Made by a program: the position numbers and the translations under genes
NCBI GenBank assembly: GCA_963737655.1
Contig: CAVTTN010000002.1
Coordinates: 6,784,001 to 6,848,000 of the forward strand
Source of the DNA: an uncultured Planctomycetota bacterium
GTDB taxonomy: Bacteria; Planctomycetota; Planctomycetia; Isosphaerales; Isosphaeraceae
Length of the DNA: 64,000 nucleotides
Direction of reading: 5' to 3'
Notes under the pieces: generated by a model
The model's database searches: none
The model's input: only the letters and a program-made list of their open reading frames with translations
Told to the model about the DNA's origin: nothing
In this document: positions 1 through 8,593 of the stretch, piece by piece
Position numbering within the stretch: position 1 is the stretch's first letter
Layout of the letters: each line of letters starts with the position of its first letter

Positions 1-187
1 CGGGGCGTCGCCAATGACCGGATCACGACCTCTCGGGCCAGGCTAACCTACGGGCAGGGAGCACCAAGGTGGAGACGGCCGGGAGGCCCGCGCCACACTC
101 AGGCTACGCCGCGCCGGGTCGGCGGGCAAGTCGTCCCCGACCCCCGTTCACGCCCCGTCGGGAGCGGACGAAGGCCGCAGGATGGTT
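1..187. mobile_element. 380-bp non-autonomous IS110-derived element, copy 1 (cut by window edge)
   Basis: Matches the right part of the copies at 2655, 5521 and 7159; ends GGATGGTT directly before the AAC of attC1. Confidence 0.9.
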
Positions 188-566: not shown

Positions 567-743
567 CCGCCGTGCGACCGCCTCCCCGTGAACTCTTCGC
601 GCCGGCGGTTCGGCATCGGTTGATACTATGTGGGCATGATCATCGATCGGCCCGCATCCCCCCCGGCCCCCGCGACGACGGGGACGGCCCGATCCGGCTC
701 GGCGGGGCTTGCGGTCGGGCGCCCCGCCTCCGACCCGTCGCCC

Positions 744-2096
744 TCACGACGGCGGCGACGGCGGCGACTTCGCCACCAGCTCGTAGCCCAGCGACCTCGC
801 CTTGCGCCGCAGCGACCGCTCCTGCTTCGCGCGCACCTCGGCCTCGTACTCCGCCAGCGACCTCGACACGTACTCCTCGCCGTGCCTGAGCATCCGGTAC
901 ACCAGCCGCGACAGCTTGTGCGCCGTCGCCGTGATCGCCCCCCGGCCGCCGATCCGGCCCTTGATCCGCCGGTAGAACTGGCCCGTCGCCGTCGCCGTCC
1001 GGCCCGCCGCCTGCGCCGCCATCCGCAGCGCCTGACCCACCCGGTTCTTGCCCTTGCGGGGCGTGCGACGCCGCTCGGTCTTGTTGCTCCGGTCGGTCCG
1101 CGGGCAGAGGCCCAGCCAGCTGGCGAAGTGCTTCTCGCTCGGGAACCGCCCCACGTCGCCGCCGAGCTCGGCCAGGATCACCGTCGCCGTCGTCGCGTCG
1201 ATCCCCTCGATGGCCGTCAGGTCCACGCCGATCGCCCGGGCCAGCTTGGCCGGGGCGTCGAACCGCACGTCGTTGGCCTTGCGGCCGCGCTTGCGGGGCC
1301 TCGCCGCGATCGGCCGGCCTTCGGAGCGGTCGGGCAGGCGGTCCAGCTCCTCGGCGATCCGGGCGTCGCACTCGTCGACCTGGCGGTGGAGGTAGTGGTA
1401 CAGGTCGGACGCCTGCCTCAGGGCGAACAGGTGCTCGGGCCGCCAGGTGCCCTCCAGGGCCCGGGCGATCTCCGCCTCGTCCCGGGCGCACCGCTCGTGC
1501 CGCAGCGCGGCCAGCTTCGTGGCGTCCCGCTCGCCGGCGAGGATCGCGGCGATGATCGCCGTGCCGGTGACGCCCGTGATGCTGCTGACGACCTCGGTCA
1601 GCTTCACATTCATCTGCTCCAAAGCCTTCTGCATGTGCTGGACGTGGTGCGAGGCGTACCGCACGAGCATCTGCCGCTGCCGCCAGTAGCCGCGCAGGGC
1701 CAGGACGGCCCCGGGCGGGCGGAAGGACGGGCGGAGCAGGCCGCACGAGTGGAGGCGCTGGAGCCACTGGCAGTCGAGCCGGTCGGTCTTGGGCCGGGCG
1801 CCGCAGTGGCTGGCCTGGCTCGGCTCGATGAGGAAGACCTCGAAGCCGCGCGATTCGAGCAGCTCGAACAGGGGGATCCAGTAGACGCCGGTGGACTCCA
1901 GGACCACCGAGGTGACGCCCTCGGCCCGGAACCAATCGGCCAGGGCGTGGAGGTCGGCCGAGCAGGCGCCGAAGGTGCGGACCCGTCCGGGCCCGACGCA
2001 GGCGACGTGGTTGTCGGAGTGGACGTCGACGGCGGCGGCGTGGGGGTGGACGACCGGCAGGGACGCGTCGGGATCGGGGGGCGTGCGGCGACTCAT
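744..2096 (-). CDS. IS110-family DEDD transposase/recombinase (450 aa)
   Basis: AAVDVH, LESTGVYW and KTDRLD (DEDD RuvC-like) motifs plus C-terminal LTAIEGID...FASWLGLCP..RS motif. Confidence 0.95.
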   Translation of the reverse strand: MSRRTPPDPDASLPVVHPHAAAVDVHSDNHVACVGPGRVRTFGACSADLHALADWFRAEGVTSVVLESTGVYWIPLFELLESRGFEVFLIEPSQASHCGARPKTDRLDCQWLQRLHSCGLLRPSFRPPGAVLALRGYWRQRQMLVRYASHHVQHMQKALEQMNVKLTEVVSSITGVTGTAIIAAILAGERDATKLAALRHERCARDEAEIARALEGTWRPEHLFALRQASDLYHYLHRQVDECDARIAEELDRLPDRSEGRPIAARPRKRGRKANDVRFDAPAKLARAIGVDLTAIEGIDATTATVILAELGGDVGRFPSEKHFASWLGLCPRTDRSNKTERRRTPRKGKNRVGQALRMAAQAAGRTATATGQFYRRIKGRIGGRGAITATAHKLSRLVYRMLRHGEEYVSRSLAEYEAEVRAKQERSLRRKARSLGYELVAKSPPSPPS

Positions 2097-2130
2097 GGCG
2101 AGGGCTCCGGCGGGTGGGGGGCCAAGCCGT

Positions 2131-2295
2131 CGCGGGCCGAGAGGGGGTCCGGGGACGAGGTAGTCTCCCCGACGGGAACGTCGCGGGGCCGTGTTGACAC
2201 GGCGCCGCGGGTCACCAATGATGGGGCCACGGCCTCTCGGGCCAAGCTAACCTGCGGGCGGCGAGCACCAGGGAGATGACGGCCGGGAGGCCCGC
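2131..2295. ncRNA. Predicted bridge/seek RNA region of the IS110 element (boundaries and strand approximate)
   Basis: Non-coding region upstream of the transposase with conserved stems and two parallel modules carrying CTCCCCG (element end) and CTAACCT (attC target). Confidence 0.65.
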
Positions 2296-2363
2296 GGCGG
2301 CGACGCCGATCGTACCGCGCCCCGGTTCACGTCCGTCGGGGAGCGGTCGCAGGCCGCGCGGAG

Positions 2364-2463
2364 AGTTAACCTTGCGCTGCAGCGGACCCGGCCCGCCGCG
2401 GCGGTTTCTGGTAACATCAAGCCTTCACTCGGCGGGCCGGTCCGCTGAGCTTGGTCGTTAGGC
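2364..2463 (+). repeat. attC site 2
   Basis: AGTTAAC...GTTAGGC, same family. Confidence 0.9.
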
Positions 2464-2494: not shown

Positions 2495-2662
2495 ATGCGA
2501 TGCCCGTTCGGCCGTTCGCGCCTCGTCGCCGTGCCGGTCGTCGCGTCGCCGTGCCGGTCGTCGCGTCGCCGTCGGCCGCGCCCCGCGTCGTCGCCGCCCG
2601 GGGTGGCGCGCGTGGTCGCCGCCGGCGGTCGTGCCCCGCGCGGTCGCGCCGCCTCTTCGTGA
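2495..2662 (+). pseudogene. Small, probably decayed cassette ORF with a 20-bp tandem duplication
   Basis: ATG after a G-rich RBS; GTCGCCGTGCCGGTCGTCGC x2 at 2525-2564; stop TGA supplied by the inserted element. Confidence 0.35.
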
Positions 2663-3034
2663 ACTCTTTGGCTGGGAACGGCCATCGACGCGCGACACTA
2701 CCCCAACCCCAGGCTTTGTGGCCGGGCAGCGGCGAGGTCCGGGTAGCAAACCGACGGATTCAAGAGCGGCGGACGAGGCGCGGGCCGAGAGGGGAGTCGG
2801 TTACGTTTGCAGTCTCTTCGACGGGAACATCCCCGCGAGTCGGCTCGCGGGGCGTCGCCAATGACCGGATCACGACCTCTCGGGCCAGGCTAACCTACGG
2901 GCAGGGAGCACCAAGGTGGAGACGGCCGGGAGGCCCGCGCCACACTCAGGCTACGCCGCGCCGGGTCGGCGGGCAAGTCGTCCCCGACCCCCGTTCACGC
3001 CCCGTCGGGAGCGGACGAAGGCCGCAGGATGGTT
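2655..3034. mobile_element. 380-bp non-autonomous IS110-derived element, copy 2
   Basis: CTTCGTGAACTC...GGATGGTT between CGCCT and AACCT; homologous to the IS non-coding region; no transposase. Confidence 0.9.
2778..2940. ncRNA. Predicted bridge/seek RNA region in the 380-bp element (shared by the other copies)
   Basis: Modules CTCTTCG-ACGGGA...TCGCCA (2814) and CTAACCT-ACGGGC...GCACCA (2890); hairpin CCCCGCGAG/CTCGCGGGG. Confidence 0.6.
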
Positions 3035-3129
3035 AACCTCGCGCTGCAGCGGACCCCACCCGCCGCATCGGTTTCTGGTAGATTCAAGGTCGCTCGTGCG
3101 GGTGGGTCCGCTGAGCTTGGCCGTTAGGC
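3031..3129 (+). repeat. attC site 3
   Basis: GGTTAAC...GTTAGGC. Confidence 0.9.
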
Positions 3130-3360
3130 GGCTCAGGAGTCGAAGCCTTCGGTCGTGCTCGTCGTCGGCCTCGCCGGTCGCGCCTCGGCTCGACGACGCC
3201 ATCGGTCGGGCCCCTGGAGTCGGCCTCGGCGGTGGTGCGCGTCGTCGCCCTCGCCGGCCGCGCCCCCGAGGTCGGGCCCGTCGGCCGGCGCCCCCTTGCC
3301 AACGCCGTCGGTCCGTGCCAGGATCGTCGGTGTCGGCGCGTGGGGCGTCGCCGGGGCGCC

Positions 3361-3460
3361 GCCTAACCCGGCGCTGCAGCGGACCCGGCCCGCGGTCGAC
3401 GATCACTCTCCTCTCAATCTCGCCGGGCGCGGGCCGGTCCGCTGAGCTTTGTCGTTAGGC
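3361..3460 (+). repeat. attC site 4 (uninterrupted; closes a ~230-bp cassette with no convincing ORF)
   Basis: GCCTAAC...GTTAGGC. Confidence 0.92.
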
Positions 3461-3485
3461 GTATTAGGTCGATCGGAGGCTCTGG

Positions 3486-3896
3486 ATGCGCAGTAGAGTC
3501 CGCTATGTCAGTGGTTTGCTATCGCTGTCCGTGCTGATCTTTACCTCGTGCAGCCCGGAGCGACCGGCGGGCAGCGAGGCGGACGCGTGGCCATCCGACC
3601 AAGAGATCCTCGCCTACCTCGATGGCAAGACGATTTTCGAGCCCACGCCTGCCTCATCGGAGAAGGGAGGTAGTGTACCCCCGAAATCCTTCTTGCTGAA
3701 GGCAGGCAACATTTCCTCCTTGGAAGTGAAGAAGTCGGGGGTTGCTGTCTCGGGCGAGCCTTGGACGACGCCGATCCATTTCATCCTCGACGAGGGGGGG
3801 CGTAAATATGCCGTTGATGCCAGCGTCGATCACCGGAAAGTCGATAATAAACGGGCCTTCTTCGGGCTCAAGGCCGAGCGCATCGCTGAGCAGTGA
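3486..3896 (+). CDS. Cassette-encoded putative lipoprotein
   Basis: GGAGG RBS, basic/hydrophobic leader and lipobox-like FTSC. Confidence 0.8.
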   Translation: MRSRVRYVSGLLSLSVLIFTSCSPERPAGSEADAWPSDQEILAYLDGKTIFEPTPASSEKGGSVPPKSFLLKAGNISSLEVKKSGVAVSGEPWTTPIHFILDEGGRKYAVDASVDHRKVDNKRAFFGLKAERIAEQ

Positions 3897-3897
3897 C

Positions 3898-3998
3898 GCC
3901 TAACCTCGCGCTGCAGCGGACCCCGGCCACGGGCCGCGCTCCCTCTTCCCTCAAGCTCACTGGTCCGTGGCCGGGTCCGCTGAGCTTTGGCGTTAGGC
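3898..3998 (+). repeat. attC site 5 (uninterrupted)
   Basis: GCCTAAC...GTTAGGC. Confidence 0.92.
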
Positions 3999-4014
3999 GG
4001 CAGAGGAGATTGGG

Positions 4015-4545
4015 ATGACCACCTCACCCCGTGACCGCATGCGGATGATCGTCGGCGATATCACGACACTAGCCGTCGACGCCGTCGTCACGGCCGCCAA
4101 TGAGTCCCTCCTCGGCGGCGGGGGAGTCGATGGCGCCATCCACCGAGCCGCCGGCCCCGGGTTGCTCGACGAGTGCCGCACCCTGGGGATCTGCAACGAG
4201 GGCGAGGCGAAGATCAGCGGCGCCTATCGCCTGCCCGCCAAATACATCATCCATACCGTCGGGCCGGTCTGGGAGGGCGGCCACTACGATGAGGTCGGCA
4301 CCTTGCGGCGGTGCTACAGGGCCTGCCTGGAATTGGCGGAGGGGCGCGGCGTCGAGTCGATCGCCTTCCCATGCGTCGCCACGGGCGTCTACGAGTTCCC
4401 GAAGGACCTGGCCTGCGAGGTCGCCGTCGACGCCGTGCGCGAATGGCTGTCGGACCACGACCTCCCGAAGCAGGTGGTCTTCTGCTGCTTCGAGGAGTCG
4501 GATGCCGCGCTGTACCGTGACCGCCTCTCCGCGGCCATCGCCTAA
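4015..4545 (+). CDS. Macro domain protein (YmdB-like O-acetyl-ADP-ribose deacetylase)
   Basis: GDIT, AANESLLGGGGVDGAIHRAAG, IIHTVGP and SIAFPCVATGVY motifs; stop TAA inside R''. Confidence 0.93.
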   Translation: MTTSPRDRMRMIVGDITTLAVDAVVTAANESLLGGGGVDGAIHRAAGPGLLDECRTLGICNEGEAKISGAYRLPAKYIIHTVGPVWEGGHYDEVGTLRRCYRACLELAEGRGVESIAFPCVATGVYEFPKDLACEVAVDAVREWLSDHDLPKQVVFCCFEESDAALYRDRLSAAIA

Positions 4546-4638
4546 CCTGGCGCTGCAGCGGACCCGGCCCGCCGCGGTAGTTTCCGTGCTATCATCGGTC
4601 TGCTCGGCGGGCCGGTCCGCTGAGCTTGGTCGTTAGGC
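4540..4638 (+). repeat. attC site 6 (uninterrupted)
   Basis: GCCTAAC...GTTAGGC. Confidence 0.92.
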
Positions 4639-4661
4639 TCCGAAGTCGGAAGGTGAGTGCG

Positions 4662-5528
4662 ATGCAACAAGCTTCACAACCAAACGCGATGCAGCAACCC
4701 ATAAAGGAGTTGCTCAAGGCGATAGCCGAACAGTCGAATCCGAAGCAACTCAGGGAAGCCTTATTCGAAAAGCGGTTGCTGGCGCGGGCCTTCGCCATCT
4801 GCCCGGATGCGGAACAAGCCGCGAAGTTAACGGACATCGTGTTCAAGCGACTCAGCGACTTGGATAAACAAGTTGAATTGGCACGGGCTGAATGGGACGA
4901 ATTCAAGAACAAGGCATGCACAGACTGGAAGAGGGTCCGAGCGGAGATCGAACACGAGAATCTGCTCATCAATCACCGTTTGGGATGGTTATTTACCTCA
5001 CAGATTTTCCTGCTCGGAGGTTTTGCGGCGGTCTTTCAGGCTTCTCTCAAGGAGAACCTACTCACCAGTTCGCTCCCAGTCCAGGTTGTATTATTAGCGA
5101 TATCAGTCGTCGCCGTTTCAATTTGTGCATTTGTGACTGCTTCTGTCGATGCAGCTCATAAACAGATTGAATTCTTGGAGAATTGGTGGTTCGCTCACTA
5201 CCTGAGCAAAAAACTGAAAATGATGGATATCTTCTGCGTCGAAAAATTGACAGATCACCCTCCAATCAACGGTATTTTTGATGAATGGTTGTACACTATC
5301 CTAAGTACGAAATGGATGCCAGTACCGATCGCTCTAGGCTGGCTCGCCTTGATGTCTGCAGTATTCTTTGAGAAGATTTTGAAGATCGAGCAGCCTGTTG
5401 TCCCAACGGTTGCCTCGACCACCGTCGTGTTTGGGCTGGGTGTCGGGCTCTTCTATTTTGCGACGTTGCGGCGCAAGCGTCCGAATCGCAAAGTTGGTTC
5501 CTGGAAAGAGCCCGCCGCCTCTTCGTGA
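4662..5528 (+). CDS. Cassette membrane protein (4 predicted TM), possibly RipA-like family
   Basis: Visibly lower GC; IEHENLLINHRLGWLFTSQ motif followed by hydrophobic helices; family call from recall only. Confidence 0.7.
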   Translation: MQQASQPNAMQQPIKELLKAIAEQSNPKQLREALFEKRLLARAFAICPDAEQAAKLTDIVFKRLSDLDKQVELARAEWDEFKNKACTDWKRVRAEIEHENLLINHRLGWLFTSQIFLLGGFAAVFQASLKENLLTSSLPVQVVLLAISVVAVSICAFVTASVDAAHKQIEFLENWWFAHYLSKKLKMMDIFCVEKLTDHPPINGIFDEWLYTILSTKWMPVPIALGWLALMSAVFFEKILKIEQPVVPTVASTTVVFGLGVGLFYFATLRRKRPNRKVGSWKEPAASS

Positions 5529-5900
5529 ACTCTTTGGCTGGGAACGGCCATCGACGCGCGACACTACCCCAACCCCAGGCTTTGTGGCCGGGCAGCGGCG
5601 AGGTCCGGGTAGCAAACCGACGGATTCAAGAGCGGCGGACGAGGCGCGGGCCGAGAGGGGAGTCGGTTACGCTTGCAGTCTCTTCGACGGGAACATCCCC
5701 GCGAGTCGGCTCGCGGGGCGTCGCCAATGACCGGATCACGACCTCTCGGGCCAGGCTAACCTACGGGCAGGGAGCACCAAGGTGGAGACGGCCGGGAGGC
5801 CCGCGCCACACTCAGGCTACGCCGCGCCGGGTCGGCGGGCAAGTCGTCCCCGACCCCCGTTCACGCCCCGTCGGGAGCGGACGAAGGCCGCAGGATGGTT
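5521..5900. mobile_element. 380-bp non-autonomous IS110-derived element, copy 3
   Basis: One visible difference from copy 2 (TTACGCTTGC vs TTACGTTTGC); same insertion point. Confidence 0.9.
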
Positions 5901-5997
5901 AACCTCGCGCTGCAGCGGACCCCGGCCACGGGTTACGTTTTCTCTTCTCCCAAGCTCACCGGTCCGTGGCCGGGTCCGCTGAGCTTGGTCGTTAGGC
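5897..5997 (+). repeat. attC site 7
   Basis: GGTTAAC...GTTAGGC. Confidence 0.9.
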
Positions 5998-6021
5998 GGC
6001 TTTCCCCGGTGAGGCCGACTC

Positions 6022-6420
6022 GTGCGCATCAGCATCCCACGCCTCCCGGTCGCGCTCGTCATCCGAGCGGATCGGCGGCCCCGACGGCCGATCAAGCCGA
6101 GGTTCACCCTTCGTGGCATGATGCTTGCCGTGCTCGTCGTCGGGCTGGTGCTCGCGCTGTCGCTCCACGCGGCGAGGTTGCAACGGGCTGGCAACGACCA
6201 TGCGGCGCGAGCGGTCCTGCTCGCCCCGGGCGCCGGCACGATGCCTCCGGTCGTGGGCTGGCACAACGCGAGGGCGAACGCCCTCTTCGCGGCCGCCTGG
6301 CGCTGGCACATGGCGGTCACCACGCTCGTTGTCAGCTCGGCCGCCTTGGGGTGTATCGCGGCCATCGGCCGGTGCGTCGCTTCTGCGCCCCGGCCCTACG
6401 GTGGGTCGGAAGGCGCCTGA
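6022..6420 (+). CDS. Cassette membrane protein with RFTLRGMM leader motif
   Basis: ORF fills the cassette; stop TGA in R''; two hydrophobic segments; start uncertain. Confidence 0.65.
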   Translation: MRISIPRLPVALVIRADRRPRRPIKPRFTLRGMMLAVLVVGLVLALSLHAARLQRAGNDHAARAVLLAPGAGTMPPVVGWHNARANALFAAAWRWHMAVTTLVVSSAALGCIAAIGRCVASAPRPYGGSEGA

Positions 6421-6512
6421 CCTCGCGCTGCAGCGGACCCCGCACCGCCGCGGCGCTTTCTCTGCTACCATGTCGTTGTTCGGCGGTGCGGGTCCGCTCA
6501 GCTTGGGCGTTA
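6415..6512 (+). repeat. attC site 8 (R'' GCCTGAC; R' split by a MITE)
   Basis: GTTA at 6509-6512 continues as GGC at 6661 after the insertion. Confidence 0.85.
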
Positions 6513-6658
6513 TTGCCCTTCAGGTTGTCCGGTTCCGGACGATCCCCGGGTGGCCGGGGGCTCGTCCGCGAGACCCCGGTCCCGCGGGGTCGGCCGACCG
6601 GGGTCTCGCCGGCGAGCCCCCGGCCACCCGGACAGGAACCCAACAATCTGAAGGTCAA
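6513..6658. mobile_element. 146-bp palindromic MITE with TA target-site duplication
   Basis: TIR TTGCCCTTCAGGTTGT / ACAATCTGAAGGTCAA (14/16), internal perfect 19- and 13-bp stems, TA at 6511-6512 and 6659-6660. Confidence 0.8.
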
Positions 6659-6685
6659 TAGGCACACTCACACACGGCATCACGC

Positions 6686-7147
6686 ATGAGCACAGGAAAC
6701 ACAAAAGCCGTCAGAGATTCCGAGACGTGCTGGGAACTTGATGAAGAGTTCATGTTGTATGCCGCGACCATTCCAGACCCGCCGAAGGCGGGTGCGGCCA
6801 CGACGGTGAGGCTCACGCATCGGAGCTCCTGCGGCCCGTTCGACTTCGCTGAATTTTTCGTTCGTGTAGGAAACTCGGCCAAGTCGAACGCCCCGCGCGA
6901 TTCGGATTCGACGACAGATTGGATTCAGGCGCGATTGGTCGAGGAGTTGGTCACCGTCGCTGAGGAAGAGATGCATCGTTCAGAGGCGCAAGAGCCTTTC
7001 GATGACGAGACACTTTGGATCGGGACTTACGAGGCCGACTTAATCTTTCCCGTCGGGCAGAGTTCCATCGAGATCAAGATCGTCAGCCAAGAGCCAGAGA
7101 TGCTCGGGTCATTCGTGCTGACGGACTGGGAGGTGACGGTTGGATGA
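6686..7147 (+). CDS. Cassette hypothetical acidic protein (153 aa)
   Basis: ORF fills the cassette between attC8 and the next R''. Confidence 0.75.
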   Translation: MSTGNTKAVRDSETCWELDEEFMLYAATIPDPPKAGAATTVRLTHRSSCGPFDFAEFFVRVGNSAKSNAPRDSDSTTDWIQARLVEELVTVAEEEMHRSEAQEPFDDETLWIGTYEADLIFPVGQSSIEIKIVSQEPEMLGSFVLTDWEVTVG

Positions 7148-7158
7148 GCCGTGCGCCT

Positions 7159-7538
7159 CTTCGTGAACTCTTTGGCTGGGAACGGCCATCGACGCGCGAC
7201 ACTACCCCAACCCCAGGCTTTGTGGCCGGGCAGCGGCGAGGTCCGGGTAGCAAACCGACGGATTCAAGAGCGGCGGACGAGGCGCGGGCCGAGAGGGGAG
7301 TCGGTTACGCTTGCAGTCTCTTCGACGGGAACATCCCCGCGAGTCGGCTCGCGGGGCGTCGCCAATGACCGGATCACGACCTCTCGGGCCAGGCTAACCT
7401 ACGGGCAGGGAGCACCAAGGTGGAGACGGCCGGGAGGCCCGCGCCACACTCAGGCTACGCCGCGCCGGGTCGGCGGGCAAGTCGTCCCCGACCCCCGTTC
7501 ACGCCCCGTCGGGAGCGGACGAAGGCCGCAGGATGGTT
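7159..7538. mobile_element. 380-bp non-autonomous IS110-derived element, copy 4
   Basis: Appears identical to copy 3; same insertion point. Confidence 0.9.
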
Positions 7539-7644: not shown

Positions 7645-7953
7645 TTGGGCGTCGAGGATCATACGTTCTCTGTGCGAATCGTCTCCATCGAGCGACTCCG
7701 CCTGCGGAATGGGTCGTCGCTGCTCCTCCTTGGCCTCGACATGACGTACCTTCAAGCGGCGCGGTCTGGTTGTCCGGGTGCCAAGGCACGCGTCGTATCC
7801 GGCGATGCCGTCACGCCAGTCCGGGGCACCCTGGCCTTTCAGCAACCACTCGACAGCCTCGCGACCGTGAGCGTATCTTCACCTGAGTCGATCATCGTCG
7901 CTGTCGGCGACACGTTCGAGTTCGAGCGAGCCGACCCCGCCGCCTCCCCGTGA
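7645..7953 (+). CDS. Cassette hypothetical protein (~100 aa)
   Basis: ORF fills the cassette; in frame with the former R'' TAA; start uncertain. Confidence 0.55.
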   Translation: MGVEDHTFSVRIVSIERLRLRNGSSLLLLGLDMTYLQAARSGCPGAKARVVSGDAVTPVRGTLAFQQPLDSLATVSVSSPESIIVAVGDTFEFERADPAASP

Positions 7954-8593
7954 ACTCTTCGCGCCGGCGGTTCGGCATCGGTTGATACTATGTGGGCGTG
8001 ATCATCGATCGGCCCGCATCCCCCCCGGCCCCCGCGACGACGGGGACGGCCCGATCCGGCTCGGCGGGGCTTGCGGTCGGGCGCCCCGCCTCCGACCCGT
8101 CGCCCTCACGACGGCGGCGACGGCGGCGACTTCGCCACCAGCTCGTAGCCCAGCGACCTCGCCTTGCGCCGCAGCGAACGCTCCTGCTTCCGCCTCACCT
8201 CCGCCTCGTACTCCGCCAGCGACCTCGACACGTACTCCTCGCCGTGCCTGAGCAGCCGGTACACCAGCCGCGACAGCTTGTGCGCCGTCGCCGTGATCGC
8301 CCCGCGGCCGCCGATCCGGCCCTTGATCCGCCGGGGGGTCAAAAAGGGGACGGGGGGTCAAAAAGGGGACGGAGCGAATAAATTCAGCTTTTTGCATTTT
8401 GCCGCGTCTCATCCAGGCCGAACTTATTCGCTCCGTCCCCTTTTCGGCCCCAAGCTAACCTGCGGGCGGCGAGCACCAGGGAAGGGACGGCCGGGAGGCT
8501 CGCGACGGCGTGCCCCAGCGTATCGCGCCCGGTGGTCGGGGCCACCCCCGGTTCACGTCCGTCGGGGAGCGGTCGGAGACGGCGCGGAGAGTT
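7946..8593 (-). mobile_element. Internally deleted IS110 copy (transposase 3' remnant plus both ends)
   Basis: 7946-8333 nearly identical to 584-971; 8445-8593 is a diverged version of the IS right end; transposase C-terminal remnant at 8106-8333. Confidence 0.88.
8332..8444. repeat. REP-like palindromic unit at the IS deletion junction
   Basis: 19-bp tandem CGGGGGGTCAAAAAGGGGA x2 and perfect 21-bp IR AAAAGGGGACGGAGCGAATAA (8361-8381 / 8424-8444). Confidence 0.85.

What the first reader, a model, noticed from the sequence alone, without database searches (positions are those of the whole stretch)
2655..7538. Non-autonomous 380-bp elements that keep the guide-RNA region and colonise attC sites
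Seen: four copies (1-187 partial, 2655-3034, 5521-5900, 7159-7538), three exactly 380 bp with one visible difference among them, all in the same orientation at CGCCT^AACCT, with no transposase but the full predicted RNA region. They are clearly diverged from the neighbouring IS (different ends, weak inverted repeat), so they are not simple recent deletions of it. Inference: a parasite that supplies its own RNA programmed for its own ends and borrows the recombinase in trans; near-identity suggests recent spread. I do not know of a description of this arrangement in an integron array, but cannot check the literature.
Basis: partly seen in the sequence, partly recalled or inferred. Interest (0 to 1): 0.85.

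Follow-up and report, generated by a model that had tools for sequence, protein, structure and literature searches.

The report
Guide-RNA-carrying mini transposon in integron sites
A 380-base, protein-less offshoot of an RNA-guided (IS110-type) jumping gene has kept its own guide-RNA gene, tuned to its own end sequence, and has filled about four in ten of the recognisable gene-cassette docking sites (attC) of this planctomycete-like genome, apparently by borrowing a neighbour's recombinase.

Summary
The window has three 380-bp copies with one SNP, plus a fourth cut by the window edge. The whole genome has 28 copies, 25 of them at least 97.9% identical. All 28 sit at ..CT^AACCT at the 5' end of attC sites, in one orientation, and 27 of 28 flank pairs are distinct.

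The element has no conserved ORF. Its right ~250 bp matches (71% identity) the non-coding region upstream of the recombinase gene of the neighbouring 1784-bp IS110-family IS.

Across 79 related non-coding regions from other genomes and metagenomes, one RNA loop tracks the 5 bases flanking each element: exact in 50 of 71 scorable cases, with 23 different 5-mers. A second segment equals each element's own recombinase-distal end. In the mini-element this is CGAAG-AG; in the resident IS it is CGGGG-AG.

So the element carries a bridge/seek-type RNA aimed at attC and at its own end. Mobilisation by the resident recombinase is inferred, not shown. No guide for the other end was found, and no expression data exist.

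The closest published case is MITEPpu9. This scan has noted transposase-less IS110 minis in other genomes before.

Verdict: new variant of a known kind, interest 0.6.

The parts
1..187 (-). Last 187 bp of a full 380-bp copy cut by the window start (full copy at C2:6783808-6784187)
2655..3034 (-). 380-bp non-autonomous element, copy 1 (T at 2806). The strand given is that of its RNA and of the lost recombinase gene.
5521..5900 (-). 380-bp element, copy 2
7159..7538 (-). 380-bp element, copy 3
2775..3034 (-). Predicted bridge/seek-type RNA region of copy 1, homologous to the IS's non-coding region 2097-2367. The 3' limit is approximate.
   Evidence: Alignment A2 and consensus structure; 181 of 256 aligned bases identical to the IS
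2890..2896 (-). Left-target-guide-like loop, RNA AGGUUAG. It equals the 5 bases flanking the element's RNA-proximal end plus the AG core of attC.
   Evidence: Guide 5-mer equals the flank in 50 of 71 relatives exactly, with 23 different 5-mers; intact in 28 of 28 copies
2913..2921 (-). Right-target-guide-like segment, RNA CUCCACCUU. Its CCU matches the ..CCT left flank.
   Evidence: Segment versus left flank in 35 pairs: longest common substring 3.54 against 2.86+-0.12 when flanks are permuted, 0 of 5000 permutations as high. Weak for attC itself (3 contiguous bases).
2814..2820 (-). Left-donor-guide-like segment, RNA CGAAGAG. It equals the element's own recombinase-distal end (..CACGAAG) plus AG.
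   Evidence: Three co-varying states in the family: CGAAG, CGGGG, UGGGG. Intact in 28 of 28 copies.
2924..2935 (-). Hairpin (RNA GGCCUCCCGGCC) that is of the resident-IS type in 25 of 28 copies and of the ancestral family type in the three old, single-copy variants
2658..2664 (.). Subterminal inverted repeat CGTGAAC, 3 bp from the left end. Its partner GTTCACG lies at 2993-2999, 35 bp from the right end.
584..2367 (-). Resident autonomous IS110-family IS (1784 bp), inserted at the same attC position and in the same orientation. The genome has six full copies.
744..2096 (-). Recombinase gene (450 aa) with DEDD_Tnp_IS110 and Transposase_20 domains; the candidate helper
   Evidence: six intact copies
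2247..2253 (-). Target guide of the IS, the same AGGUUAG
2165..2171 (-). Donor guide of the IS, RNA CGGGGAG. It equals the IS's own end ..CACGGGG plus AG.
3898..3998 (+). Unoccupied attC. The equivalent insertion point lies between 3901 and 3902. It is the empty paralogue of the site filled at C2:1971065.
7946..8593 (-). Internally deleted copy of the resident IS (648 bp) with a 116-bp inverted-repeat element at 8335-8450 in place of most of the gene

Best explanation
The 380-bp repeat is a non-autonomous (MITE-like) derivative of an IS110-family, RNA-guided insertion sequence. It has lost the recombinase gene but kept both ends and the complete upstream RNA gene.

The RNA is read on the window's minus strand, antisense to the cassettes. 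It carries three guide-like segments:
- a 7-nt loop, AGGUUAG, that matches one side of the attC insertion point plus the AG/CT core;
- a weaker segment that matches the other side (..CCT);
- a 7-nt segment, CGAAGAG, that matches the element's own recombinase-distal end.

The resident 1784-bp IS uses the same target loop, but its donor segment is CGGGGAG, matching its own different end. Each RNA therefore names its own DNA.

The most likely mechanism is that the recombinase of the resident IS (744-2096 and its five other copies) binds the mini-element's RNA. It would then excise the element as a circle and insert it at GCCT^AACCT of further attC sites.

Shown here: the anatomy, the site specificity, precise insertion, the copy number, and the guide-to-flank and guide-to-end correspondences.
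Inferred: RNA expression, binding to the heterologous recombinase, the circle intermediate, and current activity.
For: Copies and insertion sites:
- 28 copies, all at ..CT^AACCT of attC, in one orientation, with 27 distinct flank pairs.
- A filled/empty paralogue pair at 99.2% flank identity shows precise insertion.
- The same cassette is flanked by filled attCs in one array and empty ones in the window.

Non-autonomous status:
- No recombinase remnant: best tblastn E-value 0.42.
- The only long ORF is broken in the 88% variant and in the relative's copy.

RNA region:
- 181 of 256 aligned bases are identical to the IS's upstream non-coding region.
- A consensus structure over 24 family members has 46 pairs and 96.8% of cells paired. 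Cells with compensatory changes number 34, against 12.2 in shuffles (0 of 500 as high). Slid controls pair at about 45%.
- The recombinase-sense strand folds better in 20 of 24 sequences, by 9.7 kcal/mol on average.

Target guide:
- Of 79 distinct non-coding regions outside this genome, 71 had enough sequence to score.
- The element end TT plus the loop 5-mer is found exactly in 50, with 1 mismatch in 18 and with 2 mismatches in 3.
- The hits lie at +169 to +186, and the exact hits cover 23 different 5-mers.
- Chance per element is about 0.008.

Donor guide:
- The internal 5-mer equals the first 5 bases of the element in all three states seen: CTTCG (this element and its relative in G003), CCCCG (the resident IS clade) and CCCCA (the rest).
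- CTTCGTGAACTC occurs 28 times in the genome, only at these elements.
- Both guides are intact in 28 of 28 copies.

Fit to the published rule: the left guides are same-sense as left DNA plus core, as described for IS621 (PMC11208160, passages read).

Helper availability:
- Six intact copies of the IS recombinase, three of them in 100%-identical ISs.
- 25 of 28 mini-element copies carry a 6-difference patch of resident-IS-type sequence in one RNA hairpin. The three unamplified variants and the G003 copy keep the family's ancestral state.
Against: - There is no expression evidence of any kind.
- No sigma-70-like promoter or terminator is predicted in 2600-3200.
- The single-sequence fold is not better than shuffles (z = -1.59).
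- Consensus folding energies of the two strands are close: -36.1 against -34.7.
- No RNA segment complementary to the RNA-proximal end was found (AACCATCC in the mini-element, AACTCTCC in the IS). How that end is recognised is therefore open.
- The right-target-guide match to attC is only 3 contiguous bases.
- The donor guide has only three states in the family, so its covariation rests on few independent events.
- The helper is inferred. The RNA scaffolds are only ~71% identical.
- Relative G003 has at least 4 copies of the mini-element, but its 77%-complete assembly shows only a 72-residue fragment of a close recombinase (78% identity).
- No autonomous parent with CTTCG ends was found anywhere.
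Confidence: 0.7

Rival explanations
1. Fossil burst. The element was mobilised by its own autonomous parent (with CTTCG ends), which has since been lost. The copies are now immobile, and the resident IS's recombinase does not use the mini-element's RNA.
For: No autonomous element with these ends turned up in any search:
- this genome;
- the representative-genome scan, where only the relative's mini-copies were found;
- metagenome contigs: 0 exact matches and 0 of 49 family-type matches.

G003 holds copies without an intact close recombinase. The scaffolds are only ~71% identical to the IS's.
Against: - 24 copies are >=98.9% identical.
- A filled/empty pair has 99.2% identical flanks.
- Both guides are intact in 28 of 28 copies.
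- The amplified lineage, and only it, carries a resident-IS-type hairpin patch.
Confidence: 0.17
2. The element is moved by the resident IS using the IS's own RNA. The mini-element's RNA copy is vestigial baggage, retained only because it overlaps the cis-acting end.
For: Any deletion derivative that keeps the RNA-proximal end of an IS110-type element will tend to keep the RNA gene. MITEPpu9 relies on its partner's machinery and has partner-like ends (PMC12288879, abstract and Discussion read).
Against: - The IS's donor guide (CGGGG) mismatches the mini-element's end (CGAAG) at 2 of 5 variable positions, while the element's own guide matches 5 of 5.
- The RNA-proximal termini differ too.
- RNA stems and guides are conserved between copies that are 83-88% identical overall.
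Confidence: 0.07
3. The copies spread without transposition, by integron-integrase cassette shuffling, segmental duplication or homologous recombination. Alternatively the repeat is another attC-seeking element, such as an ORF-less group IIC-attC intron or a non-coding cassette.
For: - One pair of copies is a segmental duplicate, and two other pairs share one flank.
- An integron integrase lies next to the array.
- Group IIC-attC introns also enter attC in antisense orientation (PMC3001079, passage read).
Against: - 27 distinct flank pairs with different cassettes and different attC bodies.
- The element sits inside the 5' inverse core (GCCT|AAC), not at the cassette boundary G|TTAGGC.
- One copy lies at a solitary attC on the other strand.
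- There are 0 Rfam matches at gathering thresholds in the whole window, group II intron models included.
- Homology to an IS110-family non-coding region is clear.
Confidence: 0.03

Closest known systems
MITEPpu9 (the ssr9 module) of ISPpu9, IS110 family, Pseudomonas putida KT2440 (PMC12288879; abstract and Discussion read)
   Same: A small, transposase-less, multi-copy element tied to an IS110-family IS. It carries an RNA gene, forms its own minicircles, and is proposed to hitch-hike on the IS's transposase. Recombination occurs at an AG dinucleotide.
   Different: - MITEPpu9's ends (A'/B' boxes) are near-copies of the IS's ends.
- Its RNA (Ssr9) is not the bridge RNA and is not needed for transposition.
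- It targets REP sequences.
- Here the element carries the bridge-type RNA itself, with a donor guide and ends that differ from those of the only resident IS, and it targets attC.
IS1111-attC group: ISPa21, ISPst6, ISKpn4 (Tetu & Holmes 2008 and Post & Hall 2009 seen only as citations; PMC3001079 and PMC11187229 passages read)
   Same: DEDD-recombinase ISs that insert near the 5' end of attC sites, antisense to the cassettes, guided by a seekRNA with matches to both target strands.
   Different: - Those are autonomous, proteobacterial, and carry the RNA downstream of the gene.
- Here the resident IS has the RNA upstream (IS110-type layout) and lives in a planctomycete-like genome.
- The element in question has no gene.
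- Phylogenetic relation to that group was not tested. The best plasmid-borne relatives of the recombinase are only 46-50% identical generic IS110-family genes.
IS621 bridge RNA / ISEc21 seekRNA (PMC11208160, PMC11187229; passages and sections read)
   Same: - The RNA is encoded in the non-coding end upstream of the recombinase.
- Left guides are same-sense as left target or left donor plus a 2-nt core.
- Guides are naturally reprogrammed between relatives.
- RNA supplied in trans works with mini-ISs in the laboratory.
   Different: - The scaffold is unrelated at sequence level (no Rfam hit).
- The candidate top-strand target match lies 5' of the bottom-strand match, which Siddiquee et al. describe as the IS1111 order.
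- No right donor guide was found.
- The donor and target cores differ (AA at the RNA-proximal junction, AG in the target).
Protein-less IS200/IS605 derivatives that carry omega/guide RNAs
   Same: A non-autonomous element that keeps the guide-RNA gene of an RNA-guided transposon family.
   Different: A different enzyme family (TnpA/TnpB) with a different role for the RNA: homing nuclease guidance rather than specifying the recombination sites.

Membership tests
IS110 family (resident IS 584-2367) | DEDD/RuvC-like N-terminal domain plus Transposase_20 C-terminal domain | tested here: met
   PF01548 E=1.9e-17 and PF02371 E=5.9e-18, both above their cut-offs
IS110 family (resident IS and mini-element) | Sequence-specific insertion without target-site duplication | tested here: met
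   28 of 28 mini-element copies and the ISs sit at ..CT^AACCT. The empty paralogue shows an exact 380-bp insertion with only a 1-base ambiguity.
Bridge RNA / seekRNA | Structured RNA encoded in the long non-coding end next to the recombinase gene, on the same strand | tested here: inconclusive
   A conserved structure has covariation support, and the recombinase-sense strand folds better in 20 of 24 sequences. No transcript data exist, and the single-sequence z-score is -1.59.
Bridge RNA / seekRNA | Guides matching both sides or strands of the target | tested here: met
   Left guide: 50 exact and 18 one-mismatch of 71, with 23 different 5-mers. Right guide: significant but short matches.
Bridge RNA / seekRNA | Guides matching both sides of the donor (element ends) | tested here: inconclusive
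   A left donor guide was found and co-varies in three states. No right donor guide was found.
Bridge RNA / seekRNA | Binds the recombinase and is required for excision and insertion | not testable with these tools
   Needs a pull-down or mobilisation assay
IS1111 subgroup / IS1111-attC group | Long non-coding region and RNA downstream of the recombinase gene | tested here: not met
   The conserved RNA region lies upstream of the gene (2097-2367 relative to a gene on the minus strand). The downstream end is 160 bp and is not conserved in the mini-element.
IS1111 subgroup / IS1111-attC group | Subterminal inverted repeats of 7-17 bp close to both ends | tested here: inconclusive
   A 7-bp pair CGTGAAC/GTTCACG is present. 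One arm lies 3 bp from one end, the other 35 bp from the other end.
IS1111 subgroup / IS1111-attC group | Insertion near the 5' end of attC, antisense to the cassettes | tested here: met
   description in PMC3001079
IS1111 subgroup / IS1111-attC group | Recombinase falls inside the IS1111-attC clade | not tested
   No reference sequences of ISPa21, ISPst6 or ISKpn4 were compared
MITE (classical definition) | Small, multi-copy, no transposase | tested here: met
   380 bp, 28 copies, no remnant and no conserved ORF
MITE (classical definition) | Terminal inverted repeats and target-site duplication | tested here: not met
   Only a 7-bp subterminal repeat and no duplication, as expected for this IS family. 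Hence 'MITE-like'.
MITE (classical definition) | Ends shared with an autonomous partner in the same genome | tested here: not met
   The ends are CTTCG.. and ..GGATGGTT, against CCCCG.. and ..GGAGAGTT in the IS. CTTCGTGAACTC occurs only at the 28 mini-elements.
Integron | Integron-type integrase next to an attC array | tested here: met
   TIGR02249 scores 474.6 bits (cut-off 265) at C2:6777135-6778073 on the minus strand, about 450 bp before the first attC of the array that runs into the window
Group IIC-attC intron | Group II intron RNA domains | tested here: not met
   0 Rfam matches at gathering thresholds in the 64-kb window

The most novel reading that the evidence does not exclude
The mini-element is an RNA-defined hyperparasite with a private 'donor code'. 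Because end and guide lie on the same small DNA, the pair could drift away from every autonomous IS (CGAAG against CGGGG or UGGGG). That would make the element invisible to the resident IS's RNA while it still competes for the same protein and the same attC sites.

On this reading, its burst to 25 near-identical copies followed capture, by gene conversion, of a resident-IS-type hairpin in its RNA scaffold. That change would have adapted a foreign RNA to the resident recombinase. The result is a natural case of two orthogonal bridge RNAs sharing one recombinase, and of scaffold swapping to hijack it.
Probability: 0.3. Interest if true: 0.8.

Novelty: new variant of a known kind. Interest (0 to 1): 0.6.

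Why it matters
RNA-guided IS110/IS1111 recombinases are being developed as programmable genome-writing tools. It is an open question how far one recombinase tolerates foreign RNA scaffolds, and whether donor codes can be made orthogonal.

This genome offers a natural test case. Two elements share the same target guide but have different donor guides and ends, and there is one recombinase gene family. The protein-less element outnumbers its presumed helper 28 to 6.

It also matters for integron biology. By a strict regex, 34 of 61 recognisable attC 5' halves in this genome are split by the mini-element (26) or the IS (8). That includes 9 of 16 in the array next to the integrase, which should affect cassette mobility.

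Finally, similar RNA-bearing deletion derivatives occur in at least four other planctomycete-type assemblies. This suggests the lifestyle recurs.

Tried and rejected
- Public sequencing runs: 7 runs were listed, all with small shares (<=0.05 of words), and no RNA holder was listed. I did not lay reads, so there is no evidence on expression or circles.
- Rfam at gathering thresholds: 0 matches in the window. No curated bridge-RNA or intron family is recognised.
- Right donor guide: two searches gave nothing positionally consistent. One used 8-mers with wobble in 22 representatives. The other used exact 5-7-mers over whole elements.
- My first idea that CUUCGU plus CGUGAAC near the RNA 5' end formed a split donor guide was wrong. 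CUUCG is the UUCG-type loop of a hairpin conserved across the family.
G003 contigs break inside the element, so they cannot tell.
- The other IS110-type gene in this genome (C2:4847288-4848490, 38% identity) lacks this RNA scaffold and these ends.
- Coding potential: a 125-aa ORF spans the element on the plus strand, but it has a stop in the 88% variant and is frame-broken in G003's copy.
- Junction promoter: by eye there is no sigma-70-like -35/-10 across the joined ends, and none is predicted in the integrated copy. Planctomycete promoters are not covered by that scan.
- Tetu & Holmes 2008 (PMC2447020) is not held. Supplements of the bridge-RNA and seekRNA papers were not opened and could list non-autonomous relatives.

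Full report
OBSERVATION

The three internal copies (2655-3034, 5521-5900, 7159-7538) are each exactly 380 bp and differ at one base: T at 2806 against C in the other two. Bases 1-187 are the tail of a fourth copy cut by the window edge. Each lies between ..GCCT and AACCTCGCGCTGCAGCGG.., inside the 5' inverse-core of an attC site whose other half (..GGTCCGCTGAGC..GTTAGGC) follows.

The window sits at C2:6784001-6848000 of a 7.6-Mb, 68.7% G+C genome. Related loci come from records titled Isosphaeraceae or Planctomycetota.

GENOME-WIDE PICTURE

BLASTN finds 28 full-length copies. Identities are 24 at >=98.9%, then 97.9, 95.0, 88.5 and 87.7%.

- All 28 have CT before and AACCT after the element, and all have the same orientation relative to the attC.
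- 27 of 28 are followed by a recognisable attC remainder by eye, and 26 of 28 by a strict regex.
- 27 of 28 flank pairs are distinct. One pair (C2:1673105 and 6786655) is a segmental duplicate, and two further pairs share one flank only.
- The joined flanks of the copy at C2:1971065 match an uninterrupted site in the window (about 3842-3960) at 99.2%. The only gap lies away from the junction. The insertion is therefore precise, 380 bp, with no target duplication and a one-base (T/A) ambiguity.

A strict regex for attC 5' halves finds 61 in the genome: 26 follow the mini-element, 8 follow the IS, 25 are empty and 2 are other. This count is limited by the regex.

An integron integrase gene lies at C2:6777135-6778073 on the minus strand, just before the array that runs into the window (TIGR02249, 474.6 bits, cut-off 265). 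The other arrays have no integrase nearby in that search.

WHAT THE ELEMENT IS

The neighbouring IS spans 584-2367 (1784 bp). Its 450-aa product (744-2096, minus strand) has DEDD_Tnp_IS110 and Transposase_20 domains. The genome has six full copies, three within 100%-identical ISs and three at ~96.7%, plus fragments.

The mini-element has no recombinase remnant; the best tblastn E-value is 0.42. Its one long ORF is interrupted in the 88% variant and frame-broken in a relative's copy.

Its right ~250 bp aligns to the IS's non-coding region upstream of the gene, with 181 of 256 bases identical. Its left 125 bp shares only CGTGAACTCTT with the IS. It is therefore an internal-deletion-type derivative of a related but different IS, not of the resident one.

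CTTCGTGAACTC occurs 28 times in the genome, only at these elements.

THE RNA AND ITS GUIDES

About half of each set are true family members, and the rest are chance matches in unrelated phyla.

Structure. A 24-sequence alignment (A2) gives a consensus structure of 46 pairs.
- 96.8% of cells are paired.
- 34 cells have changes on both sides, against 12.2 in shuffles (0 of 500 as high).
- Slid controls pair at about 45%.

Strand. Many pairs are G-U on the recombinase-sense strand. Single-sequence MFEs favour that strand in 20 of 24 sequences, by 9.7 kcal/mol on average. The consensus energies of the two strands are close, however, and the mini-element's own fold has z = -1.59. The strand assignment therefore rests on three things together: the G-U pairs, the family rule that the RNA is co-oriented with the gene (PMC11208160, PMC11187229), and the guide logic below.

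Target guide. A loop between two conserved stems reads xGCT+5 nt on the plus strand. Among 79 distinct non-coding regions outside this genome, 71 have enough downstream sequence.
- The 7-mer TT+loop-5-mer, that is the element end plus flank, is found exactly in 50, with one mismatch in 18 and with two in 3.
- It always lies 169-186 nt downstream.
- The exact hits cover 23 different 5-mers.
- Chance per element is about 0.008.

In RNA sense the loop is (5-nt left target)+AG. [quoted passage not shown] For this element and the IS it reads AGGUUAG.

Second target segment. A 9-nt stretch between GGCCGU and GGUGC resembles the other flank.
- The mean longest common substring is 3.54, against 2.86+-0.12 when flanks are permuted (0 of 5000 as high; 35 pairs).
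- There are clear cases such as UACACU against TACACT.
- For attC the match is only CCU.
- Relatedness of the sequences inflates this test.

Donor guide. A third segment (CCCGU-NNNNNAG-ACU) equals the last five bases of each element's recombinase-distal end plus AG.
- CGAAG in the mini-element (28 of 28 copies) and in its relative in G003.
- CGGGG in the resident IS clade.
- UGGGG in the remaining family members.

The mini-element and the IS thus share a target guide but have different, self-matching donor guides.

Not found. I found no segment complementary to the RNA-proximal end. That end begins AAC in the whole family and then varies.

EVOLUTION AND HELPER

The three old variants (95, 88.5 and 87.7%) are single copies. 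The 95% one is a mosaic of the main type and the 88% type.

The main lineage and the 88% variant differ at 33 alignment columns. The main type agrees with the resident IS at 15 of these, and the variant agrees at 5. Six contiguous differences in one hairpin (A2 columns 124-136, window 2924-2935) are all IS-type in the main lineage. In the old variants, in G003's copy, and (for 5 of the 6) in the majority of 15 distant relatives they are of the family type. 25 of 28 copies carry the IS-type hairpin.

This looks like gene conversion from the resident IS clade into the lineage that then amplified. I offer it as a hypothesis for adaptation to the resident recombinase.

Distribution among same-genus genomes is patchy:
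- G003 has one full copy at 83% identity and three contig-end copies, but only a 72-residue fragment of a close recombinase.
- G002 has a related IS (66-71% amino-acid identity) but no mini-element.
- G001 has neither.

Other RNA-bearing deletion derivatives of this IS clade occur elsewhere: L044 and L092 (489 and 488 bp), and L050 and L055. Those keep the common UGGGG donor code.

LITERATURE

The following searches returned only the ISPpu9/MITEPpu9 paper as a description of an IS110-family MITE-like element:
- 'bridge RNA' + IS110 + non-autonomous;
- IS110 + MITE + 'bridge RNA';
- six mixed terms from 2024 on;
- IS110, MITEs, non-autonomous, IS1111.

In that paper (abstract and Discussion read) the module carries Ssr9, which is not required for transposition, and its ends copy the IS's ends.

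attC targeting by IS1111-family ISs and their seekRNAs is established (PMC11187229 sections read; PMC3001079 passage). The Coxiella MITE paper concerns MITEs as IS1111 targets, not derivatives.

Within the library searched I therefore found no description of a non-autonomous element that carries the bridge/seek RNA with a donor code of its own. Subscription papers and supplements were not seen.

Earlier notes of this scan report transposase-less IS110 minis in other genomes. I did not test those.

VERDICT

This is a new variant of a known kind.

Noticed in passing
window 7946-8593: A second copy of the resident IS has lost most of its recombinase gene. It keeps the first ~395 bp and the last ~124 bp, and carries a 116-bp element in between. 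This is a second kind of non-autonomous derivative that still holds part of the RNA region.
   Followed up: partly
window 8335-8450; also C2:1680753-1680866 and C2:286711-286826: A 116-bp element with a tandem GGGGTCAAAAAGGGGACG motif and ~17-bp inverted repeats (GGGGACGGAGCGAATAA / TTATTCGCTCCGTCCCC). It has three copies in the genome, each inside or beside IS/attC sequence. It may be an unrelated tiny MITE.
   Followed up: partly
C2:6777135-6778073 (about 6 kb before the window start); arrays listed: There is a complete chromosomal integron (integrase above the TIGR02249 cut-off) plus at least eight further attC clusters or singletons with no integrase nearby. This is a large cassette reservoir in a planctomycete-type genome.
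   Followed up: partly
window 4015-4545 (+): A cassette encodes a Macro-domain protein (PF01661, E=3e-41). The other cassette ORFs tested (3486-3896, 4626-5528, 6022-6420, 6686-7147) have no Pfam match.
   Followed up: no
window 6546-6631: A 36-nt inverted repeat (94% complementary, 14-nt spacer) lies between an attC and the next cassette ORF. Its function is unknown.
   Followed up: no
loci L041-L120 and L135-L214: The IS clade shows extensive natural retargeting. At least 23 different 5-nt target guides each match the flank, for example CCACC, GAATG, ATGTG, TCGCT and AGCAA. One group inserts into a tandem GAATGG-type repeat.
   Followed up: partly
window 6417-6517: This attC has TGACC instead of TAACC at the insertion point and is unoccupied. 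Such variants were not counted by my regex, so empty sites are under-counted.
   Followed up: no
recombinases of L043, L064 and relatives: Family recombinases carry a Lys/Pro-rich N-terminal extension (KKPxKPKKP-type) before the DEDD domain. The window's protein is also long, at 450 aa.
   Followed up: no
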